Notes: a model not told the origin generated them from the letters alone. A stretch of DNA of 64,000 bases from an uncultured Candidatus Rokubacteria bacterium (GCA_963805625.1 CAWDVE010000019.1:320001-384000); one strand, 5' to 3'; counted from the stretch's first letter, positions 8,832 through 63,435 are shown. Program-made: numbers and translations.

Positions 8832-10397
8832 GTGACCGTGGCGAAGGACCACCAGGTCCGGTCGCTCCTCGATGACCTCCGGCGCCCGGAGGCCTATCCA
8901 ATCCCTCGACCCTCCGAGGTCACGCCGGTCACCACACACATCTCCTGGGTCTTCCTCACCGATCGGGAAGTCTGGAAGCTCAAGCGCCCCGTCGATTACG
9001 GGTTCGTGAACTACGCGACGCTCGAGCGGCGCCGGCGCTGCTGCGAGGACGAGGTTCGCCTGAACCGGCGGCTGGCCCCTGACGTCTATCTCGGCGTCGT
9101 TCCCGTCCGGCTCGGTCCGGATGGCCACTGGTTCGGGGCCGAGGGCGACATCGTCGACTACGCCGTCCGCATGCGGCGACTCGCGGACGAATGCAGTGCG
9201 GAGGCGCTACTCCGCCGGGATGCGCTGACACCGGATCACCTCACGCGCCTGGCGGCACGGCTCGCCCGCTTCTTCGTCGACGCGGTCCCTGCGCCTGAGG
9301 CGGGCGCGGTCGAGGCCATTCGCGAAAACCTCGTCGAGAACTTCGCGCAGGTGGAGCCATTTGTTGGGCGGTTCGTGTCGCGGGGCACGTTCGATGCCGT
9401 GCGGGCATGGCAGTTCGGGATCCTGGAGCGGCAATCGGGCCGGTTCCACGGGCGGGTCGAGCAGGGAAGGATCCGTGACGGACACGGCGATCTCCGGCTC
9501 GAGCACGTGTACTTCGAGAGTGCCGAGCCGATCGTCATCGACTGCGTCGAGTTCAACGAGCGGCTCCGAAGCGGGGACACGGCCGCCGACGTGTCCTTCC
9601 TCGCCATGGAGCTGACCGCCCGTTCGCGATCCGATCTCGCCGAGGTGTTCCTGGCCGCCTTCGCGCTGGAAGCCGACGACCACGACCTCTACGGTGTCGT
9701 CGACTTCTACATCGGGTATCGCGCCTGGGTGCGCGGGAAGGTCGCCGCTTTCCTGGCCGTCGACCCGTCCACGCCGCCGGAGAAGGCGGTCCGGAAGGCC
9801 GAGGAGGCGCGGTCCCTGTTCGATCTCGCCCGGTCCTACGCGGGGGCTCGGACCGGCGCCCCGCCGGTTATCGCGGTCGGCGGGCTGATCGGCAGCGGCA
9901 AGAGCACCCTGGCGGAGGCGCTCGGGCGGTCCCGGGGCGTTCCTGTCGTCTCGTCGGACCGGGTCCGGAAGGCGTTGGCAGGGGTCCGCGCCACCGACCC
10001 TGCGCCGTCGGACGCCTACTCGGCGGCGTTCTCGACGCGGACGTTCGACGAAATGTTCCGAAGGGCCGCCGTGGTACTGGACTCGGGGCGCGGCGTTGTC
10101 CTGGACGCGACGTTTCGCGAGCGTACGCTCCGGCTCCGCGCCCGGGACCTGGCCCGGCGCCACGGACGGCGGTTTCTGTTCGCCGAGACGGTTTGTGACG
10201 AGGCCACGCTCCGGGAGCGGCTTCGCCGGCGGGCAGCCGGCCCGTCGATCTCGGACGCCGGGGAAGCCCTGCTCGAACGCATGCGCGCGGAATTCGAGTC
10301 CGTCACCGAGCTCGGCGTTGGCGAGCACGTCCGCGTCGACACGACGGGACCGCCGGAAGTGGCGGCGCACGCCGCCCTGGGGGGCCTTCCCGCCTGA
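8832..10397 (+). CDS. Bifunctional aminoglycoside-phosphotransferase-like/P-loop kinase (Rv2004c-like); start approximate
   Basis: THISWVFLT, KLKRPVDYGF, RDGHGDLRLEH, IDCVEFN, then GLIGSGKST and LDATF. Confidence 0.88.
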   Translation: MTVAKDHQVRSLLDDLRRPEAYPIPRPSEVTPVTTHISWVFLTDREVWKLKRPVDYGFVNYATLERRRRCCEDEVRLNRRLAPDVYLGVVPVRLGPDGHWFGAEGDIVDYAVRMRRLADECSAEALLRRDALTPDHLTRLAARLARFFVDAVPAPEAGAVEAIRENLVENFAQVEPFVGRFVSRGTFDAVRAWQFGILERQSGRFHGRVEQGRIRDGHGDLRLEHVYFESAEPIVIDCVEFNERLRSGDTAADVSFLAMELTARSRSDLAEVFLAAFALEADDHDLYGVVDFYIGYRAWVRGKVAAFLAVDPSTPPEKAVRKAEEARSLFDLARSYAGARTGAPPVIAVGGLIGSGKSTLAEALGRSRGVPVVSSDRVRKALAGVRATDPAPSDAYSAAFSTRTFDEMFRRAAVVLDSGRGVVLDATFRERTLRLRARDLARRHGRRFLFAETVCDEATLRERLRRRAAGPSISDAGEALLERMRAEFESVTELGVGEHVRVDTTGPPEVAAHAALGGLPA

Positions 10398-10470
10398 CGT
10401 TCCCCCGGGCGGGCCGAACCGGCCGCCGCCGGTCCTGGCCGTGCTACCCTGATTCCTCGGTGGGCGCGCT

Positions 10471-11853
10471 ATGAACACGAAACCGCGAGTGCTGATCGTG
10501 GACGACGAGCCCGACGTCGTCGCCAACTGGGCTCGGTTGCTCGGCCGAGAGGACTATCCCTGCGTCACCGCGACCGACGGTGAGCGAGCGCTGGCGCTCC
10601 TCGAGAGCGAGCGCCCGGACGTTGTCCTCACCGATCTCAAGATGCCCCGGGTGGATGGAATGCAGGTTCTCGCCCGCGCCCTCGAGCTCGATCCCGACGT
10701 CGTCGTGATCATGATCACTGGCCACGGGACGGTCGAGTCGGCGGTCGAGGCCATGCGGGCGGGAGCGTTCGACTACCTGCTGAAGCCACTGCCTTCCAAC
10801 GACGTGCTCCGCCTGGCCGTCGAGCGCGCGGCCGAACGGCGCCGTCTGATCGAGGAGAATCGCCGGCTGCGGGAGCCGCTCGCGTCGCGCGCGGGTTTCG
10901 ACCAGGTCATCGGCAAGAGCCCGGTGATGACGGCAGTGTTCGACCTCGTCCGGAAGGCTGCCCGGTCCGAGGCCAACATCCTGATCCAGGGAGAATCCGG
11001 AACCGGGAAGGAGCTGATCGCCCGGGCGATCCACGCCCAGAGCGCCCGGGCCGCCGAGGTGTTCGTTCCCGTGGACTGCGCCGCGCTGCCCGATGCGCTG
11101 CTCGAGTCCGAGCTGTTCGGTCACGAGCGCGGCGCGTTCACCGGCGCGGATCGCACCAAGCCCGGGATGATCGAGGTTGCCGACCGGGGCACGCTCTTCC
11201 TCGACGAGATCGGCGAGCTGCCCCAAGCGCTCCAGTCCAAGCTCCTCCGGGCGCTTCAGGAGCGGCAGATCCGTCGCGTCGGCGGGACCAAGTTCGTCAA
11301 CGTGGACATCCGTCTCGTGTCCGCGACCAATCGAGACACCGCGGAGCTCGTCCGGAAGGGCGAGTTCCGCGACGACCTCTTCTACCGCGTCAACGTGATC
11401 ACGATCATGTTGCCGCCTCTCCGCGAACGGGCGGGTGACGTGGGGCTTCTCGCGCACCATTTCCTTCGCCGCTACGGGCGGAACCGCGAGCAGCCGCTCG
11501 AGGGCATCGAGCCGGAGGCGCTCGCGCGCCTGGAGGCCCACGCGTGGCCTGGCAATGTGCGCGAGCTCCAGAACGTGATCGAGCGCGCCTGCGTCCTGAC
11601 GGACGGACCGATGATCCGCGTCCGGGATCTTCCCGATCACGTCCGCGGGCGAGGTCGTCCGGCACCCGCGATTCCAGGCAAGGACCTACCCCTGGCCCAG
11701 GCCCGCGAGGCCTGGCTCCAAGCATTCGCTCAGGGGTACCTCACCGATCTGCTTCGACGACACGGGGGGAACATCTCGCAGGCCGCGAAGACGGCGGGCG
11801 TCGACCGGAAGACGCTTCATCGCCTGCTGGCCAAACACGGGATCAAGGCGTGA
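10471..11853 (+). CDS. Sigma-54-dependent response regulator (NtrC family: REC-AAA+-Fis HTH)
   Basis: Receiver, GESGTGKE, ELFGHERGAFTGA, LFLDEIGE, WPGNVREL, GNISQAAKTAGVDRKTLHRLL. Confidence 0.96.
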   Translation: MNTKPRVLIVDDEPDVVANWARLLGREDYPCVTATDGERALALLESERPDVVLTDLKMPRVDGMQVLARALELDPDVVVIMITGHGTVESAVEAMRAGAFDYLLKPLPSNDVLRLAVERAAERRRLIEENRRLREPLASRAGFDQVIGKSPVMTAVFDLVRKAARSEANILIQGESGTGKELIARAIHAQSARAAEVFVPVDCAALPDALLESELFGHERGAFTGADRTKPGMIEVADRGTLFLDEIGELPQALQSKLLRALQERQIRRVGGTKFVNVDIRLVSATNRDTAELVRKGEFRDDLFYRVNVITIMLPPLRERAGDVGLLAHHFLRRYGRNREQPLEGIEPEALARLEAHAWPGNVRELQNVIERACVLTDGPMIRVRDLPDHVRGRGRPAPAIPGKDLPLAQAREAWLQAFAQGYLTDLLRRHGGNISQAAKTAGVDRKTLHRLLAKHGIKA

Positions 11854-14418: not shown

Positions 14419-15552
14419 TCACAAGGCGAATCGCAGGCGCGCGGCGACACCGCCCATCGCCCCCAGCGCCGCGTGCGCGTGAACCATCGTCACGGCTCCG
14501 CCGGCTGCGATCGTGCGGGTCACCATCGTCTCGCCGAGCTCGACCGCAGCGGTGGCCTGGTGGCACAGTCTGCACGTTGCCGCGTGTCCCGGCTGGAGCG
14601 CGGCGCATGCGGTGCAAGCCCGCCCCGGCTCCCGGAAGTCCCGGAGAAGATAGAGCCGGTCGACCGCCCCGCGTTGCACGGCCTCCAGGACTCCCTCCAG
14701 GCTCGCCACGGCACGGCCATCCTTGGCCGCCTCGGTCAGGAGGCCGTCGACGGCAGCCTTAACCTCTTGGTCGGCGACGCGGCCGATCAGCTCCGCGGCT
14801 CGGGCCACGAGCTCGTCCGCCGGCTCGTGCCGCTGCCCTGACACGACTCCCGCGACCCGCGCGGCGACCGTCGCCGGAAGGACCCGCCGGAAAGCGCCGG
14901 TGCTGTCCTGGCTCCCGGCGATGACGATGCGCTCGAGGCCATGCTTCGCCACGAGCCCGCCGAGCGCCTCAGCCACCGCGTCCAGATGCCGGTCGCGGCG
15001 TTCCTCGATGTGGCGCTGATAGTGGGCCAGGGCGAGCTGAGCCCAGCCGCCGCGACGGTGATGACCGGCGACGTCGCTGTCTAAGCGGATCTCCTCGCCG
15101 GGCCTGGCGTCGAGGACGGGGATCAGCCGCGCGCTCTCCGCATCGACGAACACCACCAGCATGGGCGGCGCGTCGGCCAGCGCGGAGGCGAGAGGACCGA
15201 GGAAGGGCCGGTCGCCCACGACAACCAAGTTCTCCAGGGCAGCCCGAACCGGGACCACCTCGCGGAGGCCGAGGCCGGGGCTGGGGCAGACGAAGAGTGC
15301 CACGCCCTGGGCGTCGGCATGGCTTGCCTGGCTGACGACTGCCTCCGCCTGCGCCTCGATCCAATCGAGGGCAGTCGCCAGACCCTCCACCAGGCCACCC
15401 TCGCGCGCCCGGCGGAGCTCGCCCTTGACGAAGAGCCGCGTGCGATCGCGCTGGTGCTCGTCCGTCCAACGCGTATTCAGGTAGACGCTCACCACTGGTG
15501 CACCGGTGTTTTCCAGCTTCGACAAACGGGCGATTCGCTCGGCAAGCGTCAT
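14419..15552 (-). CDS. Bacterial eRF1/aRF1-like release factor (baeRF/Vms1-like) with Zn-ribbon insert
   Basis: PVVSVYL, GHHRRGGWAQ..YQRH catalytic-loop-like motif, CTAC..CRLC, C-terminal GGVAARLRF. Confidence 0.82.
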   Translation of the reverse strand: MTLAERIARLSKLENTGAPVVSVYLNTRWTDEHQRDRTRLFVKGELRRAREGGLVEGLATALDWIEAQAEAVVSQASHADAQGVALFVCPSPGLGLREVVPVRAALENLVVVGDRPFLGPLASALADAPPMLVVFVDAESARLIPVLDARPGEEIRLDSDVAGHHRRGGWAQLALAHYQRHIEERRDRHLDAVAEALGGLVAKHGLERIVIAGSQDSTGAFRRVLPATVAARVAGVVSGQRHEPADELVARAAELIGRVADQEVKAAVDGLLTEAAKDGRAVASLEGVLEAVQRGAVDRLYLLRDFREPGRACTACAALQPGHAATCRLCHQATAAVELGETMVTRTIAAGGAVTMVHAHAALGAMGGVAARLRFAL

Positions 15553-15727
15553 AGTGTGGGGCACCTTGGGGCCCCTCTTGGCTCGTAAGCGGACGGGCGC
15601 TACCTGTTCTCGACCGTCGGTGCCGACAGGATAGCGGGGAGTGTCCAGCCACCTATGACGATGAAGGGCCGGGACTCACTCCCCGCACTTGCGACCGTCA
15701 TCCCGTCGACACCGCCATGATCGCCGC

Positions 15728-16223: not shown

Positions 16224-16239
16224 AGCAACTGCAATGCCA
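16224..16239 (-). promoter_or_regulatory. Sigma-54 promoter for hsp20 operon
   Basis: TGGCAT-TGCAG-TTGCT. Confidence 0.85.
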
Positions 16240-16292: not shown

Positions 16293-16330
16293 TGGGGCAT
16301 CGGCTGGCCTGGTGGGGCGCTCCCGCCCCA
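16293..16330. promoter_or_regulatory. Tandem enhancer boxes
   Basis: TGGGGC half-site (16293) and perfect TGGGGC-GCTCCC-GCCCCA (16313). Confidence 0.75.
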
Positions 16331-16935: not shown

Positions 16936-18645
16936 TTATGCGGGTCCTGGGAGGTCCTCCAGGATGGGGAAGCTGAGGGTGAACGTCGCGCCCCGGCCAG
17001 CGACGGAATGGACGTCGATGGTCCCGAGATGGTTCTGGACGATCCCGTAGCTCACCGCGAGCCCGAGCCCGGTTCCCGAGGGCTTGGTCGTGTAGAACGG
17101 CTCGAACAGGTGCGGGAGGTGCTCCGGGGAGATCCCGGGCCCCGTGTCCGTCACGATGAGACGCACCCGCCCGGACCGCACCGGATCGCGTCCAGTCTGG
17201 ATGCAGATCTCCCCTCCGCCCGTCAGTGCTTCCCGCGCGTTCGTCAGGAGGTTCAGCAAAACCTGCTGGAGCGCGTTGGCGTCCCCGGGGAGCGACGGGA
17301 GGGGCTGGTCGAGCAGCGTCGTGATGCGAACGTTGTCCGTGCTCATGGGCTTGCCCACGAGGAGGAGCGTCTCCGCGACGACCGTGTTCAGATCGACCGG
17401 GCGCCGCTCGCCGGTGGACTGGCGGGCGAACGACCGGAGGGCCTGGGCGACGCCCGCCACGCGCAGCACGTTGCGGTGGATCACCTTCAAGTCCTCGAGA
17501 TGCTGGTCCGGGAAGGTGTGGCCCTCCGCCTCGCCCAGCATCAGCTCGATCCGTGACGAGATGATGCCCAAGGGGTTGTTCATCTCGTGGGCGACCCCGG
17601 CCACGAGACGGCCGAGGGCGCTGAGCTTCTCAGTCTGATAGAGTACCTCGCGCTGGTGCCGGAGCTCCACCTCGACGCGTCGGTGAGAGAGGTGCTGGCC
17701 GATCCGGCTGCCGATGTCGGTCAGCATGGCGAGGAGCGCTTCATCCGGCTCACGCGAGTCCTGGGTCAGGAGCACCATGACGCCGGTCAAGGTGTGCTCG
17801 CTCTGGATCGGGAAGGCGCAGCCCGACGTCAGCCCGATCTGGGCCGCCGCCGCCGCGCGGCCGCCGGTGAGGCGATCGCCCGGCGCCGCCCAGCATGCGC
17901 GCCCGGTGTCCCAGGCCCGACCGGCCAGCCCCCTCCGGCGTGACAAGACAGTCTCGCGGCTGACCGCGTCGAATTCCGTTGTGTCCAGGTCCGGGCGATG
18001 CCACCCGGAATCGTACCGGAGGGCATCGCCCTCCACGCGCCACAGCTCGCCAACATCCCAGTCGAGGTTCTCGCACAGCGCCTGGAGGAGGCGCGGCGCG
18101 AGTCCCTCCGTTTCGGAGGGTTCGGCGAACACACGCGTCACCATGAACTCCGCCTGCAGTCGCCGCTCTGCGTTCCTGCGCGGCGTGATGTCGGTGACGA
18201 AGCCGAGTGCGAGACGACCTTCCTCCGCCTCGATGAAGCTCAGGCTGATCTCGACGGGGAATTCACGGCCGTCCTTGCGGCGGGCCATGAGATCGAGGCC
18301 GAGTCCCATGGGCCGGACCCGGGGTTCTATAAAGAAGCCGGCGCGGTGCTGCACGTGACTGGCCCGGATGCGCTCGGGCAGGAGGGTCTCCAGAGGCAGG
18401 CCCGGAAGCTCGCCGCGTGCATACCCGAACATCTGTTCCAGTCGACCGTTGGCCCGCACGATCAGGCCTGCGTGATCGACGATGACGATGCCGAGAGGAG
18501 AACTCTCCAGGACGGCATCGGCCTGCATTGAGGGGTCGTGGAACATCCCCTCCGGAGACGCTCCGGGCTGAGCTCCACTCGCGCCGCGCCGCTGGCGCCC
18601 GGCCGGCCTGGACGCCTCTCGTACCTTCGGCTTGCCGTTAGGCAT
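16936..18645 (-). CDS. PAS-GAF sensor histidine kinase (NtrB-like transmitter; FixL-like PAS); start uncertain
   Basis: PAS (MFGY..LLPERIRASH..RRKDGREFPVEISLS), GAF, H-box AHEMNNPL, NLLTNA, DTGPGI, FEPFYTTK, GTGLGL; no TM helices seen. Confidence 0.92.
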   Translation of the reverse strand: MPNGKPKVREASRPAGRQRRGASGAQPGASPEGMFHDPSMQADAVLESSPLGIVIVDHAGLIVRANGRLEQMFGYARGELPGLPLETLLPERIRASHVQHRAGFFIEPRVRPMGLGLDLMARRKDGREFPVEISLSFIEAEEGRLALGFVTDITPRRNAERRLQAEFMVTRVFAEPSETEGLAPRLLQALCENLDWDVGELWRVEGDALRYDSGWHRPDLDTTEFDAVSRETVLSRRRGLAGRAWDTGRACWAAPGDRLTGGRAAAAAQIGLTSGCAFPIQSEHTLTGVMVLLTQDSREPDEALLAMLTDIGSRIGQHLSHRRVEVELRHQREVLYQTEKLSALGRLVAGVAHEMNNPLGIISSRIELMLGEAEGHTFPDQHLEDLKVIHRNVLRVAGVAQALRSFARQSTGERRPVDLNTVVAETLLLVGKPMSTDNVRITTLLDQPLPSLPGDANALQQVLLNLLTNAREALTGGGEICIQTGRDPVRSGRVRLIVTDTGPGISPEHLPHLFEPFYTTKPSGTGLGLAVSYGIVQNHLGTIDVHSVAGRGATFTLSFPILEDLPGPA

Positions 18646-18757: not shown

Positions 18758-18818
18758 ATGCTCGGGGCCCGGCATCGGCCGGCCGGGGGGGCGGAGAGCT
18801 GAATGGCCCGATAACCGT

Positions 18819-18834
18819 TGGCACGTCGATTGCG
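18819..18834 (+). promoter_or_regulatory. Sigma-54 promoter for second receiver
   Basis: TGGCAC-GTCGA-TTGCG. Confidence 0.8.
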
Positions 18835-18859
18835 TCTCGCTCTCAAGAGGTTTTGCATC

Positions 18860-19252
18860 TTGGCTACCATATTGGTTGTGGACGATGAGCCGGACCTGGT
18901 GACGAACTGCCAGCGACTCCTCCGGCCGCTCGGGCACGTCCCTCTGAGTGCGAGCACGGCCGCCGATGCGATCGCTGTTATCGACCAGGAGGCTCCCAAC
19001 CTCGTCGTCACCGATCTACGGCTCTCAGGACCCGATGGACTTACCGTGGCCCGGCATGCCCGTACCCGCGTCCCACCGATCCCGGTGCTCCTCATCAGTG
19101 CCTACGATTCCCTCGGCATGAGGGATGCCGCGAGAGAGATCGGGGTCAACACGTTCCTTGCGAAGCCCTTCGCGAACGCCGCTTTCCGGCAGGCCGTCGA
19201 GCGTCTCCTGGAGGACAGGACCTCCGGATCGACCGATGACGCGGTTCGGTAG
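18860..19252 (+). CDS. Stand-alone response regulator receiver (paralog of 8429..8812)
   Basis: ILVVDDEPDLVTNC, TDLRLS, ISAY, LAKPF; TTG start. Confidence 0.9.
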   Translation: MATILVVDDEPDLVTNCQRLLRPLGHVPLSASTAADAIAVIDQEAPNLVVTDLRLSGPDGLTVARHARTRVPPIPVLLISAYDSLGMRDAAREIGVNTFLAKPFANAAFRQAVERLLEDRTSGSTDDAVR

Positions 19253-24803: not shown

Positions 24804-24819
24804 TGCAAGGGCCGTGCAA
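24804..24819 (-). promoter_or_regulatory. Variant sigma-54-like promoter (GG changed to TG)
   Basis: TTGCAC-GGCCC-TTGCA, with well-formed enhancer boxes upstream. Confidence 0.45.
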
Positions 24820-24879
24820 TGAGGAGGGCCTCGGCCGGACTGGGCCGATGCCCATCAAGGCCGGAGGACGTGCGAGCCG

Positions 24880-24916
24880 CGTCCCGCCGCTGCCCCAGTG
24901 GGGCGGCGGCGTCCCA
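24880..24916. promoter_or_regulatory. Tandem enhancer boxes
   Basis: CGTCCC-GCCGCT-GCCCCA (24880) and TGGGGC-GGCGGC-GTCCCA (24899). Confidence 0.65.
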
Positions 24917-28248: not shown

Positions 28249-28264
28249 TGCAACGACAATGCCA
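28249..28264 (-). promoter_or_regulatory. Sigma-54 promoter for USP-ppsA
   Basis: TGGCAT-TGTCG-TTGCA. Confidence 0.85.
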
Positions 28265-28315
28265 CGAGCAAGGGCCCTCGACCGGCCAGCCAGGGCGCCG
28301 AAACGCGTTCCAGGA

Positions 28316-28352
28316 TGGGGCGCCGATGCCTCGCCGGGGCGATTGCACCACG
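28316..28352. promoter_or_regulatory. Tandem enhancer boxes
   Basis: TGGGGC-GCCGAT-GCCTCG (28316) and CGGGGC-GATTGC-ACCACG (28335). Confidence 0.65.
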
Positions 28353-43051: not shown

Positions 43052-43067
43052 TGCAATGGAGGTGCCA
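43052..43067 (-). promoter_or_regulatory. Sigma-54 promoter for HPF-like gene
   Basis: TGGCAC-CTCCA-TTGCA. Confidence 0.85.
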
Positions 43068-43106
43068 GAAGAATGCGGGGTAAACGGGGCAACTGACATC
43101 GTTCTC

Positions 43107-43144
43107 TGTCCCGCCGATGCCTCGGGTGAGGCGATCTCTCCCCA
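43107..43144. promoter_or_regulatory. Tandem enhancer boxes
   Basis: TGTCCC-GCCGAT-GCCTCG (43107) and TGAGGC-GATCTC-TCCCCA (43127); nearly colinear with 48496-48533. Confidence 0.7.
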
Positions 43145-48437: not shown

Positions 48438-48453
48438 TGCAACCCGAGTGCCA
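48438..48453 (-). promoter_or_regulatory. Sigma-54 promoter for USP/DUF6335/ATPase
   Basis: TGGCAC-TCGGG-TTGCA. Confidence 0.85.
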
Positions 48454-48495
48454 CCGCGGCGGGGCATTGGACATGGGAGGAGGTCGCCTGAGAGG

Positions 48496-48574
48496 TGTCC
48501 CGCCGCTGCCCCGGGTGGGGCGGGTGCTCCGCACCGGCGCAGCACCCTGGCGAGACCGGGTTGAGCGTGCCCCG
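48496..48574. promoter_or_regulatory. Enhancer boxes between divergent sigma-54 promoters
   Basis: TGTCCC-GCCGCT-GCCCCG (48496), TGGGGC-GGGTGC-TCCGCA (48516), CGGGTT-GAGCGT-GCCCCG (48557). Confidence 0.65.
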
Positions 48575-48615
48575 CGCCATGCGCCCGAATGTGTAGTCGA
48601 TGCCAGAGATTGGGA

Positions 48616-48631
48616 TGGCAGCGCCGTTGCT
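48616..48631 (+). promoter_or_regulatory. Sigma-54 promoter for nucleotidyltransferase-BON-pfkB operon
   Basis: TGGCAG-CGCCG-TTGCT. Confidence 0.8.
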
Positions 48632-50382: not shown

Positions 50383-50452
50383 GCGAGCCCGGGCACGCGG
50401 CGATATGGCAGGAGATGGACGCCTGATGCGCCCCTCGCTGGAGGCCCAACCG

Positions 50453-51391
50453 ATGCTCTCGATCGTCACGCTCACCATGAACCCCGCCGTCGACGAGAGC
50501 ACCAGCGTGCCCTACGTCCTCCCGGACCGAAAGCTTCGCTGCCAGGCCCCGACGTACGAGCCTGGAGGCGGGGGGATCAACGTCGCGCGAGCGATCCGGA
50601 AGCTCGGAGGGGACGCGCTGCTCTGCTTCCCCGTGGCGGGGCCGGCCGGTGAGCTGCTCAAGCGCCTGCTCGACGCCGAGGGCCTGCGTTACACGCCGAT
50701 GCCCGTCAACGGCTGGACGCGGGAGAACCTCAACGTGCTGGAGGAAGTCAGCGGCCGCCAGTTCCGGTTTTGCATGCCGGGCGCGGCCCTTGGCGACCAC
50801 GAGTGGCCGATCTTCCTCGACTGGGTGCGTCAGCTGCGTCCCGCGCCCGACTTCCTGGTGGCGAGCGGCAGCTTGCCGCCCGGGGTGCCGGTCGACTTCT
50901 ATGCGCGCCTGGCGGCGGTGGGCCGACAGATTGGAAGCCGGGTCGTCCTGGACACCTCCGGCGCGCCGCTGGCCCGCGCCGTCGACGAGGGAGTCTATCT
51001 GCTGAAGCCGAGCCTTCAGGAGTTTCGGGCCCTGATGGGCGAGCCCGAGGGCGACGAGTCCAACCTCGCAAACCTCGCGGCCATCGTCGTCAAGCGCGGC
51101 TGGTGCGAGATTCTCGTCCTCTCGCTCGGGGCGGGGGGCGCCCTCTGGGTGACCGCCTCGGAGCGGGAGCGGCTCGCGTCGCCGGCTGTCCGCGTCAAGA
51201 GCAGCGTGGGGGCCGGCGACAGCATGGTGGGGGGCATCGTGCTCTCCCTGGCCCGGGGCCGAGCCATAGGCGAGGCGGTCCGCTTCGGGGTCGCTGCCGG
51301 GGCGGCGGCCGTGATGAACCCCGGAACCGCGCTCTGCCGTCGCGAAGACGTGGAACGACTGTACCCGCAGGTGATGACATCACCCGGTTAA
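50453..51391 (+). CDS. pfkB: PfkB-family phosphofructokinase (Pfk-2-like)
   Basis: TLTMNPAVD, GGGGINVARAI, SGSLPPG, LLKPS, VGAGDSMVGG. Confidence 0.9.
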   Translation: MLSIVTLTMNPAVDESTSVPYVLPDRKLRCQAPTYEPGGGGINVARAIRKLGGDALLCFPVAGPAGELLKRLLDAEGLRYTPMPVNGWTRENLNVLEEVSGRQFRFCMPGAALGDHEWPIFLDWVRQLRPAPDFLVASGSLPPGVPVDFYARLAAVGRQIGSRVVLDTSGAPLARAVDEGVYLLKPSLQEFRALMGEPEGDESNLANLAAIVVKRGWCEILVLSLGAGGALWVTASERERLASPAVRVKSSVGAGDSMVGGIVLSLARGRAIGEAVRFGVAAGAAAVMNPGTALCRREDVERLYPQVMTSPG

Positions 51392-51970: not shown

Positions 51971-53977
51971 ATGAGTGACCTGTCAGACGCCCGAGCATAT
52001 ATGGTTCGTACCCATATCGCCGCCCGCGGCGTCCGTGATCCAGCCGTGCTCGCGGCGATGCGGGATGTCCCGCGCGAAGCGTTTCTCCCCGCGGAACTCG
52101 AGGAGTTCGCGTACGCGGATGCACCCCTGCCGATCGAGCGCGGGCAGACGATCTCGCAGCCGTACATCGTCGCGCTGATGACGGCGGCAGCGGCGCTCCG
52201 CCCCGGTGATCGTGTGCTGGAGGTGGGGACGGGGTCGGGCTACGCGGCGGCGATTCTCGGCCGGATCGCTCACGAGGTCTATACCATCGAGCGGCACGAA
52301 GAGCTGGCGCGCGTCGCGGCCGAGCGGCTTGCCCATCTCGGATTCTCGAACGTTTCGGTGCTCCATGGCGACGGGACGCTCGGCTGGCCCGAGCACGCTC
52401 CGTACGACGCGATCGTCGTTGCGGCGGGGGGGCCGAAGGTGCCCGAGGCGCTCCTCGACCAGTTGGCACCTGGCGGGCGCCTCGTGATCCCGGTGGGGGA
52501 GGGCCGCGGCGTCCAGCGCCTGCTTCGGGTGACTCGGGGAGCGGATGGGCGGCTTCACGAGGAAGAGCTCGGCGACGTGCGCTTCGTGCCACTGATCGGG
52601 GCCCAGGGCTGGATGGCAGAGCCGACCGAATGGAACGGGCGTCCCTCGCAGGCCCCGAGCCGCCCCGGAATCCTGGTTCACCTCGTGCGCGAAGTCGCCG
52701 AGCCGATCGAGTCGATCGATGGCCAGGATCTCGGGGCGCTGCTCGAGCGTCTCGGCCGAGCGAGGCTGGTGCTGATCGGTGAAGCGTCGCACGGCACGTC
52801 CGAGTTTTACCGGATGCGTGCCCGCATCACCCAGGAGCTCATCCGCACGCGCGGATTCGGAATCGTCGCGGTCGAGGCCGACTGGCCCGACGCGCGCCGC
52901 GTCGGTCGCTACGTCCAGGCCCTTCCAGACGGGCACCGTCCCGAGGTAGCGGCCTTCACGCGGTTCCCCACGTGGATGTGGCGGAATCACGAGACCTGGG
53001 GATTCGTCGAGTGGCTCCGGGCCTTCAACGCCGAGATCCGCGAGCCCGCGCGACGCGCGGGTTTCTACGGCCTCGACCTCTACAGCCTCTTCGCGTCGAT
53101 TCGCTCGGTCCTCGAATACCTGGAGCGGGTGGACCCGGCGGCGGCGCGTCTTGCGCGCGAACGATACTCCTGCTTGACGCCCTGGCAGGCCGACCCGCAG
53201 GCTTATGGGCGCGCCGCCCTCAGCGGACGCTACCGCGTCTGCGAGAAGGAGGCAGTGGCGATGTTGCGCGACATGCTCGGCCGGGAGCTGGACTATGCGG
53301 AGCGGGACGGCGAGCGGTTCCTCGACGCGGTGCAGAACGCACGCCTCGTTGCCGACGCCGAGCGCTACTACCGAGCGATGTACTACGGGGCGAGCGAGTC
53401 GTGGAACCAGCGCGACCGGCACATGTTCGACACGCTCGAGCGCCTGCTCGCGTTCCACGGACCGTCGTCGAAGGCCGTCGTGTGGGCGCACAACTCGCAC
53501 CTCGGCGACGCGCGAGCGACCGAGATGAGCGCGCGCGGCGAGCTGAACCTGGGACAGCTGTGCCGGCAACGATTCGGCGACGCGGTCTCCCTGGTCGGCT
53601 TCGGCACCGATCACGGGACGGTTGCCGCCGCGCACGACTGGGATGGGCCAATGCGGATCATGAACCTGCGCCCGGCCCATCCCGAGAGCTACGAGCGGCT
53701 GTGTCACGACTCGGGCGTCAAGGCCTTCCTGCTGCATCTCCGCGAGCCGTCGCGCGAGGAGGTGCGCACGGAGCTGGCGCCTTCGCGGCTCGAGCGCGCC
53801 GTCGGCGTCATCTACCGGCCGGACACCGAGCTACAGAGCCACTACTTCCATGCCTCGCTGCCATACCAATTCGACGAGTACATCTGGTTCGACGAGACGC
53901 AGGCGCTACGGCCCATCACGACCGCCGAGACGAGCACGCTCCTGGCGCTCCATCCATTCAGCACCGGAGCGGCCTGA
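51971..53977 (+). CDS. Protein-L-isoaspartate O-methyltransferase fused to erythromycin-esterase-like domain
   Basis: GQTISQPYIV, VLEVGTGSGY, APYDAI; then IGEASHGTSEFY, VEADWPD, FPTWMWRN, WAHNSH. Confidence 0.9.
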   Translation: MSDLSDARAYMVRTHIAARGVRDPAVLAAMRDVPREAFLPAELEEFAYADAPLPIERGQTISQPYIVALMTAAAALRPGDRVLEVGTGSGYAAAILGRIAHEVYTIERHEELARVAAERLAHLGFSNVSVLHGDGTLGWPEHAPYDAIVVAAGGPKVPEALLDQLAPGGRLVIPVGEGRGVQRLLRVTRGADGRLHEEELGDVRFVPLIGAQGWMAEPTEWNGRPSQAPSRPGILVHLVREVAEPIESIDGQDLGALLERLGRARLVLIGEASHGTSEFYRMRARITQELIRTRGFGIVAVEADWPDARRVGRYVQALPDGHRPEVAAFTRFPTWMWRNHETWGFVEWLRAFNAEIREPARRAGFYGLDLYSLFASIRSVLEYLERVDPAAARLARERYSCLTPWQADPQAYGRAALSGRYRVCEKEAVAMLRDMLGRELDYAERDGERFLDAVQNARLVADAERYYRAMYYGASESWNQRDRHMFDTLERLLAFHGPSSKAVVWAHNSHLGDARATEMSARGELNLGQLCRQRFGDAVSLVGFGTDHGTVAAAHDWDGPMRIMNLRPAHPESYERLCHDSGVKAFLLHLREPSREEVRTELAPSRLERAVGVIYRPDTELQSHYFHASLPYQFDEYIWFDETQALRPITTAETSTLLALHPFSTGAA

Positions 53978-54251: not shown

Positions 54252-55727
54252 CTAGCCCTTGATGTTCCCGATGGGGGTGAGGGACACGACCTTTCGGGAG
54301 ATGTCGAGCCGATGGAGGACATCGACGACCTCCGCGAGATCCTTGTAGGCGAAGCCGGCCTCCTCGGCCACACCCGATTTCGACGCGGCGCGCACGAGGA
54401 TACCGCGAGCTTCCATCTCCTGGATCAGCCGCGTGCCGTGGACCCGGCGCTTGGCCTCGTGGCGTGACATCGTGCGCCCGGCGCCGTGGGCCGTCGAGCC
54501 GAAGGTCTCGGCCATCGCATGTGCCGTGCCCACGAGGAGCGCGGAACCGGTTTCCATGGAGCCTCCGATGATCACCGGCTGGCCCACCGCCTGGTATGCC
54601 TCTGGTACGTCCGGAGCGCCGGGACCGAAGGCGCGCGTGGCGCCCTTCCGGTGAACGACCAGCTCCAGGGATTCGCCGTCCACCACGTGGCGCTCCAGCT
54701 TGGCCGTGTTGTGGCAGACGTCGTAGACGACCGACAGCCCGAGCTCGTGAGGGTCGGAGCCAAAGACGGCGCCCATGACCTCCCGGACCCGGTGCGTGAT
54801 TACCTGGCGATTGGCGAACGCCGTGTTGGCCGCCGCCGTCATGGCGGCGAAGTAGGCCTGCCCATCGGGTGAGCGGAACGGCGCGCAGGCGAGCTCGCGA
54901 TCACTGACGGTGATGCCGTAGTGGGGCATCGCCTGGTCGAAGCGGCGGAGGTAGTCCGTCCCGATCTGGTGCCCGAACCCGCGGGAGCCGCAGTGGAGCA
55001 TGACGCACACCTGTCCGGGTCCATCCACCCCCAGGGCCCGGGCCACCTCGGAGTCGTGGATGGCCCCGGGACGGACGACCTGGATCTCGAGATAGTGGTT
55101 GCCGGAGCCGAGCGTCCCCAGTTGGTTCAGACCCCGCTCGAGGGCGCGGGCGCTCACGTGAACGGGATCGGCCCCCGGGAGGCATCCGCGTCCCTCCGTG
55201 TGCTCGAGGTCTTCGGGCCAGCCGTAGCCGTGACGCACGCACCATCCGGCTCCCTCCACCATGACCCGGCGGAACTCGCTGTCGGTCAGTCGCACGAACC
55301 CGTGGGCGCCCACGCCCGACGGGACCGCGCGGAATAGCGCGTCCACGAGGTCGCGCAGCCTGGGCTGCACCTCGGCTTCGGTGAGGCGCGTCCGGATGAG
55401 CCGCATCCCACAGTTGATGTCGAAGCCGATCCCGCCGGGCGAGATGACGCCGTTGTCGGCGCGAAACGCCGCGACGCCACCGATCGGGAAGCCGTACCCC
55501 CAATGCCCATCAGGCATGCAGAGAGCGGCGCGGACGATGCCCGGGAGACAGGCCACGTTCGTCACCTGTTCGAAGACCCCGGCGTCCATCTGCGCGAGCA
55601 ACGTCTCGGAGGCGTAGATGCGCGCCGGGACCCGCATGCCAGCCTTTTGGCTTGCCGGGATCTCCCAGATGCAGTCCCCGGCCGGCTCGACTTTCATCCC
55701 GGACGTTGTTGCGATCGTCACCGGCAT
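54252..55727 (-). CDS. rtcB: RNA-splicing ligase RtcB (archaeal-like long form)
   Basis: MPDGHWGYGFPIGG, GFDINCG, GSGNHYLE, HCGSRG, HNTAK, HRKGAT, HGAGR, EEA..AYKD. Confidence 0.95.
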   Translation of the reverse strand: MPVTIATTSGMKVEPAGDCIWEIPASQKAGMRVPARIYASETLLAQMDAGVFEQVTNVACLPGIVRAALCMPDGHWGYGFPIGGVAAFRADNGVISPGGIGFDINCGMRLIRTRLTEAEVQPRLRDLVDALFRAVPSGVGAHGFVRLTDSEFRRVMVEGAGWCVRHGYGWPEDLEHTEGRGCLPGADPVHVSARALERGLNQLGTLGSGNHYLEIQVVRPGAIHDSEVARALGVDGPGQVCVMLHCGSRGFGHQIGTDYLRRFDQAMPHYGITVSDRELACAPFRSPDGQAYFAAMTAAANTAFANRQVITHRVREVMGAVFGSDPHELGLSVVYDVCHNTAKLERHVVDGESLELVVHRKGATRAFGPGAPDVPEAYQAVGQPVIIGGSMETGSALLVGTAHAMAETFGSTAHGAGRTMSRHEAKRRVHGTRLIQEMEARGILVRAASKSGVAEEAGFAYKDLAEVVDVLHRLDISRKVVSLTPIGNIKG

Positions 55728-55756
55728 TCCCTATGGCCCGCGTGTGCGGCGACCGC

Positions 55757-56185
55757 TCAGATGTCGATCACGAGCCGGGCACGCCAGCCACCGTTGACGG
55801 CGATCACCTCGAACCGGTGGAAGGTCACGGCCTTGGGATCGGCCCGCAGGGCCGTCCGTACCCGATCGATGACGCCGCCGTGGACGTCCGCTTCCAGCCT
55901 GAACGGACCGTCCCCGCTGACCCGAACCCGCGCCTGCGGGAAGACCTCCCGGTCGCGGTCCTTCCGGTAGATGAGCTCAGACAGCCAGTCGTAGAACAAC
56001 AAGTCCACCTCGTCGGCCGAGAGCGCGATCCGCCGCTCGACTGAGGTCTCCACGGTCGCCGGATCGACCATGAGCTCGACTAGGGCGCCCGCCGCTGTCT
56101 CGAAGAGATCGTTCAGGTCCCGGCCTTCGACCTCGAGGGCGCAGTCAGCGAGGGCCACGTTCTCCAAGACTTGATATCGGCCCAC
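55757..56185 (-). CDS. Archease
   Basis: LAD..EVEGRDL..LF, WLSELIY, KAVTFH, LVIDI; directly upstream of rtcB. Confidence 0.9.
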   Translation of the reverse strand: MGRYQVLENVALADCALEVEGRDLNDLFETAAGALVELMVDPATVETSVERRIALSADEVDLLFYDWLSELIYRKDRDREVFPQARVRVSGDGPFRLEADVHGGVIDRVRTALRADPKAVTFHRFEVIAVNGGWRARLVIDI

Positions 56186-56199: not shown

Positions 56200-56215
56200 T
56201 GCAACCGGAATGCCA
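56200..56215 (-). promoter_or_regulatory. Sigma-54 promoter for archease-rtcB
   Basis: TGGCAT-TCCGG-TTGCA. Confidence 0.8.
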
Positions 56216-56266
56216 CGAGCCCCGCGAGCCTTCGGCGGCGATTCAGGCCGCGATCGGCTACCTCGG

Positions 56267-56303
56267 TGGGACATGAATGCCCCGCGAGGGCAAACGAGCC
56301 CCA
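56267..56303. promoter_or_regulatory. Tandem enhancer boxes
   Basis: TGGGAC-ATGAAT-GCCCCG (56267) and GAGGGC-AAACGA-GCCCCA (56286). Confidence 0.72.
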
Positions 56304-61847: not shown

Positions 61848-61863
61848 TGCATCCAGGGTGCCA
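61848..61863 (-). promoter_or_regulatory. Sigma-54 promoter for acsA-pdh-ACP
   Basis: TGGCAC-CCTGG-ATGCA. Confidence 0.8.
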
Positions 61864-61904
61864 CAGGCTTTGTCCATCAAATTGGTGGCTTGTCGACCTC
61901 CGGG

Positions 61905-61966
61905 CGCTGACGTGCCGCCCCAGCTTGGGGTGCGGGTGCCCCAGGGGCTGGTCCGTGAGTGCCCCG
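61905..61966. promoter_or_regulatory. Triple enhancer boxes
   Basis: GCCCCA half-site (61917), TGGGGT-GCGGGT-GCCCCA (61926), TGGTCC-GTGAGT-GCCCCG (61949). Confidence 0.72.
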
Positions 61967-62004
61967 GCCGACGCGGATGCCGGCTGATCGCGGCCCGTCG
62001 CGCC

Positions 62005-63435
62005 TCAGTCGGCGCCGCGTACCTCGAGCGCTTCGATCTCGGCTTTGAGCGACCGTTGGAGGGCAAGGAGGCGATCGCTGTAGGCCACCGGGTACGCGGC
62101 GGGGTCTCTGAGCCGCCGCACCGCGTCAGGGAGCGCGCGGAGCTGAGCCGCACAGTAGTCGCGGATCGCCGTCAGGGCGGGAAGCGGCGTCGTGACTGCT
62201 CCCGAGGTCATCACCGTGTCGAGAAGAGGCTCGGCGCCGGCGGGCGGGTCTTCCTCCCGTAGGGCCAGCCGATCGCTCGCGAAGCGGCCGTCGGCCCCGC
62301 GTGTGCGGTAGACTTGCTTCTCGCCGGTCCACGTTTCCTTCCCCGTGCTGAACTTGAGCACGTTCCGGCCGGCGTAGCGCACGAGCTTGTAGGCCATGTC
62401 CAAATAGGGGGCGTCGGCGGAGACATCCATGCGCGTCCCGACCCCGAAGGCGTCGATGGGCGCCCCGGCGGTGAGGAGCTCGTCGATGACGTGCTCGTCG
62501 AGGCCGCCGCTGACGAAGATACGCACGTAGCCGAGCCCGGCCCCATCGAGGATTCGTCGCACCTCCTGGCTGAGGGTCAGAATGTCGCCGCTGTCCAGTC
62601 GCACGCCGGCCAGCCGGTGCCCCCGAGCCTCCATCTCCTTTCCCACCTGGACCGCCTTGTGGGCGCCGGTGACGGTGTCGTACGTGTCGATGAGAAGGGT
62701 CGTGTTCTCCGGAAAGGCGCGCGCGAACGCGCGGAACGCGTCGATCTCGCGGGGGAAGGCCACCACGTACGAGTGCGCCATCGTCCCGGTGGCCGGGATA
62801 CCGTAGGAGCGCTCCGCGAGCACGTTGCTGCTCATGGTGGCGCCCGCCAGGAATGTGCACCGCGCGGCCTTCATGCCGGCATCGACTCCGGGAGTGCGCC
62901 GGAGGCCGAACTCGACAATCGCGCGCCCGCGTCCCGCGATGACGGAGCGGGCCGCCTTGGTGGTGAGGACCGTCTGGAAGTGACAGGCGTTCATGACCGC
63001 CGTCTCGACGAGCTGGGCTTCGATGATGGGCGCGGTGATCTCCAGGAGCGGCTCATCGGGAAAGACGACCGTCCCTTCGGGCACGGCTCGCACGTCGCCC
63101 GTGAACCGGAGGTCGGCGAGGAAGCCGAGGAAGCGATCGTCGAACCGGCGCGTCCCTGCGAGGTGCGCGAGCGCGTCGTCGGAGAAGCGGAAGCTCTGGA
63201 GGTAGCCCAGCACATCCTCGAGCCCCGTGGCGATGAGGAACGACCGATTCTTCGGGAGCTTCCGCACGAAGAGACTGAACGTGGCGGGGTCGTGCATCCC
63301 TTCCCGGAAATACGACGCGGCCATGGTGAGCTCGTAGAGATCGGTGAAGAGGGCGGCGTCTCGGGTGGTGACCGGTCCCGAGACAAACGCTCCCCGGAGC
63401 GATGGGGCGATTGGCGATTCCAGCGACGCGCTCAT
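62005..63435 (-). CDS. pncB: Nicotinate phosphoribosyltransferase
   Basis: TDLYELTM, EFGLRR, GTMAHS, LIDTYD, VRLDSGD, SGGLDE; ATGA coupling. Confidence 0.94.
   Translation of the reverse strand: MSASLESPIAPSLRGAFVSGPVTTRDAALFTDLYELTMAASYFREGMHDPATFSLFVRKLPKNRSFLIATGLEDVLGYLQSFRFSDDALAHLAGTRRFDDRFLGFLADLRFTGDVRAVPEGTVVFPDEPLLEITAPIIEAQLVETAVMNACHFQTVLTTKAARSVIAGRGRAIVEFGLRRTPGVDAGMKAARCTFLAGATMSSNVLAERSYGIPATGTMAHSYVVAFPREIDAFRAFARAFPENTTLLIDTYDTVTGAHKAVQVGKEMEARGHRLAGVRLDSGDILTLSQEVRRILDGAGLGYVRIFVSGGLDEHVIDELLTAGAPIDAFGVGTRMDVSADAPYLDMAYKLVRYAGRNVLKFSTGKETWTGEKQVYRTRGADGRFASDRLALREEDPPAGAEPLLDTVMTSGAVTTPLPALTAIRDYCAAQLRALPDAVRRLRDPAAYPVAYSDRLLALQRSLKAEIEALEVRGAD

What the first reader, a model, noticed from the sequence alone, without database searches (positions are those of the whole stretch)
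8832..63435. Gene content mirrors the mycobacterial DosR regulon without a DosR-type regulator
Seen: APH-like/P-loop kinase, multiple USPs, Hsp20, PfkB, erythromycin-esterase fusion, CtpF-like ATPase, CBS pairs, eRF1-like protein, archease, RtcB, PncB and an HPF-like protein. Established from memory: the M. tuberculosis DosR regulon includes members of these families (Rv2004c, Rv2005c/Rv2623, hspX, pfkB, Rv2030c, ctpF, Rv2626c, Rv2629, Rv2630, Rv2631, Rv0573c, Rv0079). No LuxR/NarL or FNR/FixK regulator is in the window. Inference: a shared dormancy toolkit has been rewired to a different sensor and sigma factor in another high-GC lineage.
Basis: partly seen in the sequence, partly recalled or inferred. 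Interest (0 to 1): 0.78.

Follow-up and report, generated by a model that had tools for sequence, protein, structure and literature searches.

The report
Sigma-54 low-oxygen survival island in Rokubacteria
An uncultured Rokubacteria-type bacterium clusters about 100 kb of stress, ribosome-resting and alternative-respiration genes (many from families that tuberculosis bacteria switch on when oxygen runs out) behind predicted sigma-54 promoters that share one repeated DNA site, which likely lets a predicted heme-sensing kinase and its activator turn them on together at low oxygen, a variant of a switch already known from Myxococcus.

Summary
The block is larger than stated, about 102 kb, and also holds a ba3-type oxidase, NrfAH and an NXR-type enzyme. 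Close proteins come from Rokubacteria (Methylomirabilota). No LuxR- or CRP-type regulator lies in it, and DosR, FNR/lxa and NmpR boxes are not enriched. Instead 17 of 21 predicted sigma-54 promoters in the block carry a palindrome, TGGGGC-N6-GCCCCA, about 50-140 bases upstream, against 11 of 200 elsewhere in the genome. The block encodes an NtrC-type activator and a PAS-GAF kinase whose likely heme ligands, His97 and Met113, are invariant in 82 of 82 homologues. Site, activator and gene set recur across the order. So control by a different sensor and sigma factor is supported; heme binding, the oxygen signal and induction are inferred. The design is not new: Myxococcus NmpRSTU is a tested sigma-54 low-oxygen regulon, and Burkholderia lxa is a clustered DosR-like set. 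The sensor, site, lineage and size differ here. New variant of a known kind; interest 0.5.

The parts
10471..11853 (+). NtrC-type sigma-54 activator (REC with Asp55, AAA+ with GAFTGA, Fis-type HTH); last gene of a REC-kinase-activator operon behind a promoter with the palindrome, so predicted to activate itself
   Evidence: recognition helix conserved across the phylum
16936..18645 (-). Cytoplasmic PAS-GAF histidine kinase (His353); PAS resembles the heme PAS of FG214, FixL and DosP, with His97 and Met113 at FG214's ligand positions and no FixL distal Arg
8387..8812 (+). Stand-alone receiver protein 1 (first gene after the 8388 promoter; true start lies a little downstream of the ORF limit)
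18818..19252 (+). Stand-alone receiver protein 2, divergent from the kinase, behind its own sigma-54 site
8307..8324 (.). Palindrome TGGGGC-N6-GCCCCA (perfect), shared by the divergent promoters at 8233(-) and 8388(+)
8218..8233 (-). Sigma-54 -24/-12 site for CBS, cytochrome c and two USP genes
8388..8403 (+). Sigma-54 site for receiver, AAA_33 kinase and activator
16313..16330 (.). Palindrome (perfect) upstream of the hsp20-baeRF10 promoter
   Evidence: same position with changed spacer in relatives
16224..16239 (-). Sigma-54 site for Hsp20, baeRF10 and the GTPase-like gene
5504..5635 (-). Sigma-54 site (5519) with two tandem palindromes (5598-5615, 5618-5635), heading USP, CBS, CBS and formate/nitrite channel
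24804..24916 (-). Sigma-54 site (24819) and palindrome (24899-24916), heading CBS, truncated GlgP, PolX and a second LigA
28249..28333 (-). Sigma-54 site (28264) and palindrome (28316-28333), heading USP and PEP synthase
30627..30753 (-). Sigma-54 site (30642) and perfect palindrome (30736-30753), heading LigD phosphoesterase domain and HhH protein
38477..38492 (-). Sigma-54 site heading DksA-like, GroEL paralogue and USP; no good palindrome (score 3.3)
43052..43144 (-). Sigma-54 site (43067) and palindrome (43127-43144), heading HPF
48438..48631 (.). Divergent sigma-54 sites (48453-, 48616+) sharing a palindrome (48516-48533); head tandem USP/P-ATPase and nucleotidyltransferase/BON/PfkB/CBS/PCMT-esterase
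56200..56284 (-). Sigma-54 site (56215) and palindrome (56267-56284), heading archease-RtcB
61848..61943 (-). Sigma-54 site (61863) and palindrome (61926-61943), heading acetate-CoA ligase and a pyruvate dehydrogenase paralogue set
8832..10397 (+). AAA_33 P-loop kinase with APH-like N-terminus; sits next to the activator in close relatives
14419..15564 (-). baeRF family 10, a distant Balon/Rv2629 homologue that keeps a GGWAQ loop
15728..16165 (-). Hsp20 / alpha-crystallin
42563..42982 (-). S30AE / HPF-type ribosome hibernation protein
43362..47078 (-). Type II P-type ATPase, frameshifted near 44700-44735, followed by a separate AIR-synthase-like gene
47545..48375 (-). Tandem-domain USP
50426..51391 (+). 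PfkB-family sugar kinase
52046..53977 (+). Protein-isoaspartate methyltransferase fused to an erythromycin-esterase-family domain
54252..56185 (-). RtcB and archease (RtcA lies just beyond the window at C19:384435)
62005..63908 (-). CBS pair and PncB; their weak sigma-54 site and palindrome lie just outside the window (64067, 64149)
385..2701 (-). ba3-type cytochrome c oxidase subunits I and II and a small upstream membrane peptide
   Evidence: tandem perfect or near-perfect palindromes upstream in G003, one in G175

Best explanation
This is a clustered block of stress, hibernation and respiration genes whose operons start at predicted sigma-54 promoters with a shared upstream palindrome, and it is likely switched on at low oxygen when the block's own predicted heme-PAS kinase phosphorylates the block's own sigma-54 activator, which would bind TGGGGC-N6-GCCCCA. 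Steps: (1) shown in sequence: about 20 sigma-54 sites head the operons and most carry the palindrome; (2) strongly inferred: the palindrome is the binding site of the activator at 10471-11853; (3) inferred: the kinase at 16936-18645 is its partner; (4) inferred: the PAS binds heme through His97, with Met113 as an exchangeable sixth ligand; (5) inferred from the targets: the kinase is active when oxygen is scarce; (6) inferred: the activator induces its own operon, and two induced stand-alone receivers could damp the signal. The output would be ribosome hibernation and RNA repair (HPF, baeRF10, RtcB, archease, RtcA), chaperones and protein repair (Hsp20, GroEL, PCMT), NAD salvage (PncB, NadE), nucleotide-sensing USP/CBS proteins, and alternative respiration (ba3 oxidase, NrfAH, NXR-type enzyme).
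For: Eight strict sigma-54 sites in 64 kb against 93 in 7.27 Mb; rpoN present. The palindrome is enriched only at spacer 6: 11 sites with at most one mismatch, all intergenic, against 0.64 expected; the reversed arrangement shows no comparable peak (at most 3 sites at any spacer). A matrix trained on relatives scores 10 or more upstream of 17 of 21 island promoters, against 11 of 200 elsewhere and 0.6% of random positions. Sites are kept with changed spacers at matching promoters in G003, G009 and G004, and recur before USP/CBS/Hsp20 genes in more distant members of the order and in other orders. The strict composite pattern is found in 47 of 182 genomes of the order, with the reversed control in 0 of 251; 41 of 103 genomes with the activator have it against 6 of 79 without. 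Kinase and activator genes are adjacent in 12 genomes among the loci, and a kinase with all five heme-pocket residues sits directly beside the activator in G022, G023, G084, G095 and G097. All 14 PDB hits of the PAS are FG214, FixL or DosP/YddU chains. H97, R101, R111 and M113 are invariant in 82 of 82 homologues; the model matches 10JX at 1.7 A. Targets include a ba3-type oxidase, NrfAH and an NXR-type enzyme.
Against: Nothing was measured: no heme binding, DNA binding, phosphotransfer or induction data. The motif seed came from this island, so the test is not fully independent, and related genomes are not independent samples. In six relatives of five families/genera aligned the kinase adjacent to the activator is a membrane protein whose PAS lacks the His/Met residues, so the activator may take other inputs; only 8 of 18 genomes examined had a heme-type PAS in the stretch fetched. 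In this genome the kinase lies 5 kb from the activator. The FixL distal Arg is absent. Similar palindromes occur at a few promoters of metal-stress-type genes, one beside a ZraR-like paralogue, and arise in Achromobacter from tandem NtrC-type boxes before glnA (27 of the 80 loci examined). Four of 21 island promoters score below 10. Many targets (PDH, LigA, BirA, Kbl) are not oxygen-specific.
Confidence: 0.62

Rival explanations
1. The wiring is the same (sigma-54, this activator, this palindrome), but the signal is not oxygen. The kinase reads redox state, CO, NO or heme supply, or a membrane kinase feeds in another cue, so the block is a general growth-arrest programme.
For: The closest structure, FG214, is described as a redox-regulated switch with His/His or His/Met ligation. 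The FixL distal Arg is missing. A non-heme membrane kinase is the adjacent partner in six relatives. Hsp20, HPF, USP, GroEL and DksA-like genes are general stress genes.
Against: A ba3-type oxidase, NrfAH and an NXR-type enzyme share the promoter signature here or in relatives. The published clusters with this gene content (DosR, lxa, NmpR) are induced at low oxygen. No CO dehydrogenase gene was found among the scanned genes of the block.
Confidence: 0.22
2. The promoters are sigma-54 dependent, but the palindrome is read by a different activator encoded elsewhere; the resident pair is merely one of the targets.
For: The genome has 39 proteins with a sigma-54-activator ATPase match. Similar boxes occur near a ZraR-like pair. 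Six of 79 genomes without a detected activator have the pattern.
Against: The pattern tracks the resident activator across the order (41/103 against 6/79), and five of those six genomes are 75-94% complete. Its HTH is unlike those of the paralogues and conserved wherever the site is found. In G005 and G011, where the recognition helix differs, only one palindrome with at most one mismatch was seen in the fetched stretches. glnA here lacks the site.
Confidence: 0.08
3. A DosR/NarL-, FixJ- or FNR/CRP-type regulator elsewhere in the genome controls the block.
For: Twelve LuxR-type HTH matches and two full CRP-type proteins exist elsewhere.
Against: Dev-box core, FNR and lxa motifs occur at background frequency in the block. 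Neither CRP-type protein shows an evident FNR cysteine cluster (judged by eye). Sigma-54 promoters need an AAA+ activator (established knowledge).
Confidence: 0.04
4. The block is an accumulation of acquired and partly decayed genes with no common control.
For: Several genes are broken (split USP, truncated USP and GlgP, frameshifted ATPase and GTPase-like gene). Gene order varies between relatives.
Against: Promoter and palindrome are conserved with changed spacers across genomes and move with the genes. GC content is flat at 0.67-0.72.
Confidence: 0.04

Closest known systems
NmpRSTU and the NmpR regulon of Myxococcus xanthus (PMC11841059; abstract, passages and section 22 read)
   Same: NtrC-like activator with sigma-54 promoters, a palindromic enhancer, self-activation, a heme sensor kinase, and CBS, USP, P-type ATPase and high-affinity oxidase targets; one target shown induced in hypoxia.
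   Different: NmpU uses a protoglobin in a multi-step relay; no protoglobin is found in this genome. The NmpR site is GCGCA-N5-TGCGC, not enriched here. The oxidase is cbb3 there and ba3-type here. Seven bound promoters there, against about 17-20 predicted promoters in one 100-kb block with ribosome-hibernation and RNA-repair genes here.
DosR (DevR) dormancy regulon of Mycobacterium tuberculosis (PMC3177182, PMC5309233; passages)
   Same: Family overlap: USPs, alpha-crystallin, PfkB, P-type ATPase, CBS pair, RtcB, nicotinate salvage, S30AE/HPF-type and Balon-type factors; 18-bp palindromic sites, often in tandem; regulator inside its own regulon.
   Different: NarL/LuxR-type regulator and GGGACT-type Dev box there; AAA+ activator, sigma-54 and TGGGGC-N6-GCCCCA here. 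Nine genomic blocks there, essentially one here. Tested homologues are distant.
lxa locus of Burkholderia cenocepacia (PMC3721108; passages)
   Same: A single cluster of about 50 genes with six USPs, alpha-crystallin, PfkB, cation ATPase, ABC exporter and cytochromes, whose overlap with DosR the authors noted; induced at low oxygen.
   Different: Anr/FNR-type TGA-N6-TCA motif and CRP-family regulators; neither is found in this block.
Heme-PAS sensors FixL, DosP and FG214; NtrY/NtrX (bioRxiv 10.64898/2026.03.15.711900 and PMC7240162; passages)
   Same: PAS fold with the proximal His conserved; Met at FG214's Met172 position; NtrY is a heme-PAS redox kinase paired with an NtrC-like protein.
   Different: No FixL distal Arg, no FG214 distal His175, an added GAF domain, and a GAFTGA-bearing partner rather than FixJ. 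NtrY was not compared by sequence; the activator scores 395.6 bits against the NtrX family cut-off of 600.
Balon / baeRF-1 proteins in stress operons (PMC10901736, PMC6514570; passages)
   Same: Release-factor-like protein next to Hsp20, with HPF and RtcB nearby; this neighbourhood is already described.
   Different: The protein here is baeRF family 10 and keeps a GGxxQ loop, which Balon-type factors lack; it may be a peptidyl-tRNA hydrolase rather than a pure hibernation factor.

Membership tests
DosR regulon | NarL/LuxR-type response regulator DosR encoded with the regulon | tested here: not met
   No GerE match on contig C19; 12 matches elsewhere
DosR regulon | Dev boxes (GGGAC-N4-GTCCC core) upstream of targets | tested here: not met
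   0 exact against 0.17 expected; 10 against 7.3 at one mismatch
DosR regulon | Shared effector families | tested here: met
   against the lists
DosR regulon | Orthology of effectors to Rv genes (reciprocal best hits, trees) | tested here: inconclusive
   No M. tuberculosis proteome available. baeRF10 below the Rv2629 cut-off; the CBS tested hits many other chains better than Rv2626c; the tandem USP gave three PDB hits, none labelled Rv2623
DosR regulon | Induction by hypoxia, NO or CO | not testable with these tools
   Only low-share assembled RNA runs were found
NmpRSTU regulon | NtrC-like activator with sigma-54 promoters and self-activation | tested here: met
   (predicted from sequence)
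NmpRSTU regulon | Protoglobin sensor kinase NmpU | tested here: not met
   No PF11563 match in the genome, 99.9% complete
NmpRSTU regulon | GCGCA-N5-TGCGC enhancer | tested here: not met
   11 against 11.5 expected at one mismatch
NmpRSTU regulon | Orthology of the activator to NmpR | not tested
   No NmpR sequence was fetched
lxa / Anr-FNR regulon | Single cluster rich in USPs with Hsp20, PfkB and cation ATPase | tested here: met
lxa / Anr-FNR regulon | TGA-N6-TCA or FNR box and a CRP-family regulator in the locus | tested here: not met
   3 intergenic sites against 4.2 expected; FNR box 1 against 0.9; no CRP match in the block
FixL-type heme-PAS kinase | Proximal heme His in the PAS F-helix | tested here: met
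   His97 aligns with the FixL and FG214 His; invariant in 82 of 82
FixL-type heme-PAS kinase | Distal Arg that stabilises bound O2 (role recalled) | tested here: not met
   The aligned position holds Leu
FixL-type heme-PAS kinase | Heme binding and O2-dependent kinase activity | not testable with these tools
   needs protein biochemistry
Sigma-54 enhancer-binding response regulators (NtrC class) | REC with phospho-Asp, AAA+ with GAFTGA, Fis-type HTH, RpoN in the genome | tested here: met
   below every named equivalog cut-off shown (AtoC 473/714, NtrC 397/559)
Balon / Rv2629 hibernation factors | Family score and absence of a GGQ-type loop | tested here: not met
   66.5 bits against 320; GGWAQ present; best family is baeRF10

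The most novel reading that the evidence does not exclude
Rokubacteria run a phylum-specific oxygen master switch: one His/Met heme-PAS kinase and one sigma-54 activator jointly turn on dormancy genes and the anaerobic respiratory chain. Their NXR-type enzyme, which sits behind a top-scoring site, would then work as a low-oxygen nitrate reductase feeding NrfAH (nitrate to ammonium) rather than as a nitrite oxidiser. The DosR-type gene set would be a portable toolkit that has been plugged into at least four unrelated oxygen regulators (DosR, Anr/FNR, globin-NmpR and this one).
Probability: 0.33. Interest if true: 0.72.

Novelty: new variant of a known kind. Interest (0 to 1): 0.5.

Why it matters
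It gives a concrete, testable regulatory circuit (sensor, activator, binding site and about 20 promoters) for an uncultured phylum, for which my literature searches found no such description. The palindrome can be used to read off candidate low-oxygen genes in any Rokubacteria genome, including the direction in which their NXR-type enzyme is likely used. It also adds a fourth regulator class over the same USP/Hsp20/HPF/RtcB gene set, which points to that set, with its several uncharacterised families, as a general survival programme and not a mycobacterial speciality. The interest is capped because a sigma-54 low-oxygen regulon and clustered DosR-like islands are already published.

Tried and rejected
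Rfam and tRNA scans: nothing. DosR, FNR, lxa, NtrC and NmpR motifs: at background. Reading the palindrome as the junction of two NtrC-type boxes: true for Achromobacter glnA, rejected here because the reversed arrangement has no peak and glnA of this genome lacks the site. P-ATPase/AIR-synthase fusion: rejected as a frameshift, since the genes are separate in G003 and G009. Single-sequence fold: unusable, pLDDT 33.6. Alignment-based fold was good (pLDDT 90.6), but most top Foldseek hits were phytochromes at 13-17 A rmsd, which reflects only the PAS-GAF order; the GAF ligand stays unknown. RNA runs: 12 runs from 7 studies, each holding 11% of the words or less; 4 of 12 were laid and are contigs from mixed organisms, so they say nothing on starts, level, induction or habitat. 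IHF-like site between palindrome and promoter: 7 of 28 against a shuffled mean of 2.1 (maximum 6), weak and from related genomes. Atlas look-up gave no result. Literature searches for this system in Rokubacteria/Methylomirabilota or for a sigma-54 hypoxia regulon found nothing relevant, but they also missed the NmpR paper, so they are weak evidence of absence. No complex prediction was run, since kinase-receiver pairs tend to pass by likeness. Only 80 of the 113 hits were listed and examined. No supplements were read; the lxa and Balon supplements may list Rokubacteria or similar loci.
Full report
Observation. I called genes with a codon model trained on the genome and scanned 71 window ORFs against Pfam and 34 proteins against NCBIfam. 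The window holds seven USP genes (one split, one truncated) and eight CBS-pair genes; 13 of 27 USP domain matches in the 7.27-Mb genome lie in the surrounding 104 kb. Three details need correcting: the esterase fusion partner is a protein-isoaspartate methyltransferase; the ATPase is frameshifted near 44700-44735 and only seems fused to the next gene; and the eRF1-like protein is baeRF family 10, far below the Rv2629 family cut-off, a distant homologue of Balon MSMEG_1130 (E 4e-7).

Extent and organism. The window is C19:320001-384000 of G000. Flank scans extend the block to about C19:306.8-409.1 kb. The left part adds an NXR-type molybdoenzyme operon (best PDB hit nitrite oxidoreductase subunit A, E 9e-269), NrfAH, an acetate-CoA ligase and a ba3-type oxidase. 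The right part adds RtcA, NadE, an archaeal-type SAM synthetase family protein, PCMT, a second DksA-like gene, more USPs, an ABC exporter and a second P-type ATPase. Records labelled Rokubacteria or Methylomirabilota carry close homologues (for example Hsp20 at 92% in L053 and L084; activator C-terminus at 83-84%), which places the genome in that group. LigA, GroEL, PncB, NadE, BirA and PDH have separate paralogues elsewhere in the genome, so the island copies are second copies; RtcB, archease, PfkB, HPF, baeRF10 and the AAA_33 kinase have no paralogue at E 1e-15.

Promoters. Eight strict sigma-54 sites fall in the window, all between genes and facing a downstream gene, against 93 in the genome; rpoN is present. 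Upstream of them lies a palindrome, TGGGGC-N6-GCCCCA. Only spacer 6 is enriched: 5 exact and 11 one-mismatch sites in 104 kb, all intergenic, against 0.06 and 0.64 expected. A matrix built from 47 sites in relatives (selected with the seed taken from this island, so not fully independent) scores 10 or more upstream of 17 of 21 island promoters, 11 of 200 other promoters and 0.6% of 5000 random positions. Dev-box, FNR, lxa and NmpR motifs are at background.

Conservation. G003 and G009 keep most of the island and G004 a small part of it, with promoter and palindrome in matching places and changed spacers. G019, G036, G059, G051, G039 and G175 have reshuffled versions with the same signature; G039 showed promoters but no one-mismatch palindrome in the stretch fetched. 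The strict composite pattern occurs in 47 of 182 genomes of the order, 1 of 68 in other orders, and the reversed control in 0 of 251. It tracks the activator: 41 of 103 genomes with it against 6 of 79 without (kin are not independent, and G006 was counted as having it). In other orders the activator persists; G084, G095, G097, G117 and G103 show it beside USP/CBS genes with a variant site, whereas G113, G110, G128 and G099 show little of this nearby. A scan of 185,579 species genomes gave 113 hits; of the 80 listed, 25 are labelled Rokubacteria/Methylomirabilota, 27 are Achromobacter/Bordetella (glnA where checked), 8 are unlabelled bacteria and 20 are others. The Achromobacter hits come from neighbouring NtrC-type boxes and are a look-alike. 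draw on overlapping collections.

Regulators. The activator has a receiver Asp, GAFTGA and a Fis-type HTH and falls below all named family cut-offs shown. Its helix (SxAAKxAGxDRKTxHRL) is conserved across relatives and unlike those of its 38 paralogous matches. It ends an operon that starts at a palindrome-bearing promoter, so it would activate itself. The kinase is PAS-GAF-HisKA-HATPase. All 14 PDB hits of its PAS are FG214, FixL or DosP/YddU chains. His97 and Met113 align with FG214 His156 and Met172, which that preprint assigns as proximal ligand and alternative distal ligand (passages). H97, R101, R111 and M113 are invariant in 82 of 82 aligned sequences, chosen by high coverage from the best 120 of 618 hits. 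The alignment-based model (pLDDT 90.6) matches 10JX at 1.7 A over 112 columns. Kinase and activator genes are adjacent in 12 genomes among the loci examined. Against a simple picture: in the six of these aligned from G015, G024, G041, G044, G045 and G056 the adjacent kinase is a membrane protein without the heme residues, while G022, G023, G084, G095 and G097 have the heme type adjacent, and several genomes carry a heme-type kinase elsewhere in the island (8 of 18 examined). Two kinases may feed one activator.

Mechanism. Shown: gene content, promoter-like sites, the palindrome and their conservation. Inferred: the activator binds the palindrome; the kinase is its partner; the PAS binds heme; activity rises when oxygen falls. 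The last step rests on the targets (ba3-type oxidase, NrfAH, NXR-type enzyme) and on analogy with DosR, lxa and NmpR. I put the whole chain at 0.62, a non-oxygen signal at 0.22, another activator at 0.08, a DosR/FNR-type regulator in trans at 0.04 and no co-regulation at 0.04.

Comparison and novelty. It works like DosR and lxa in content and like NmpRSTU in wiring, but fails the defining tests of each: no DosR or Dev box, no Anr/FNR box, no protoglobin and no NmpR site. The lxa paper already notes the overlap with DosR (passages); the Balon and baeRF papers describe the Hsp20/HPF/RtcB neighbourhood (passages); the NmpR paper shows a sigma-54 regulon with CBS, USP, P-type ATPase and cbb3 oxidase, one promoter induced in hypoxia (abstract, passages and section 22). 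I reached the NmpR paper through earlier notes of this scan, which also report similar islands in other Rokubacteria, Binatia and myxobacteria; those notes are unchecked leads. My searches found no paper on this circuit in Methylomirabilota, but they missed NmpR too. Verdict: a real, well-supported predicted regulon; new variant of a known kind; interest 0.5. The most valuable open point is whether the NXR-type operon, which has the top-scoring site in this genome (20.6) and a strong one in G175, is induced at low oxygen together with nrfAH.

Noticed in passing
window 44700-44735, 13399-13460, 6248-6692, 23312-24327, 35983-36342: Several island genes are frameshifted, split or truncated here (P-ATPase, GTPase-like gene, two USPs, GlgP) while relatives have whole versions; relatives show other splits. 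Assembly error or real decay cannot be told apart.
   Followed up: partly
G000:C19:306831-313112 (L003): NXR-type operon (A, B, C and chaperone) behind a sigma-54 promoter with a perfect palindrome; bears on whether Rokubacteria use it to oxidise nitrite or reduce nitrate.
   Followed up: partly
G000:C13:318963 and C17:772862: Two strong sites outside the island: one heads a cytochrome c / Rieske / cytochrome b-like operon, the other a gene set that looks like porin, amino-acid decarboxylase and antiporter (read from N-terminal sequences only). Likely extra regulon members.
   Followed up: partly
G000:C10:222673, C10:1894772, C19:161657: Similar palindromes before Gly/Met-rich secreted proteins and metal-stress-type genes, one beside a ZraS/ZraR-like pair; a second activator may read a related site.
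   Followed up: partly
L207-L209 (G005:C104, G011:C31): A sister module: activator at 78% identity with a changed recognition helix, a kinase lacking the heme residues, and promoters with TGGCTC at -24 and almost no palindromes. A natural contrast for site specificity.
   Followed up: partly
window 34806-35633: A BirA-like ligase lacking an HTH match is repeatedly the first or second gene after a palindrome-bearing promoter in relatives (L059, L123, G036, G059); its role in the programme is unexplained.
   Followed up: no
window 19259-23315 and 28505-30491: A second NAD-dependent DNA ligase, PolX, a LigD phosphoesterase domain and an HhH protein lie behind these promoters, suggesting DNA end repair as part of the programme.
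   Followed up: no
window 10430-10445: An extended -10-like sequence lies between the AAA_33 kinase and the activator gene and could give basal, sigma-70-type expression of the activator (seen by eye).
   Followed up: no
G000:C12:190045-190395: A second PAS domain of the same His/Met type lies in an unrelated region of the genome.
   Followed up: no
L050 and other Achromobacter loci: Three NtrC-type boxes upstream of glnA-ntrB generate the same 18-bp pattern at their junction.
   Followed up: yes
L075: A record labelled Gemmatimonadota carries hsp20-baeRF10-GTPase at 73-89% identity with the same promoter; possibly a misassigned Rokubacteria contig or a transfer.
   Followed up: no
G000 contigs C17/C26, C19/C28, C3/C22: Identical promoter hits and proteins occur on pairs of contigs, consistent with duplicated assembly segments (6.3% contamination reported).
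   Followed up: no
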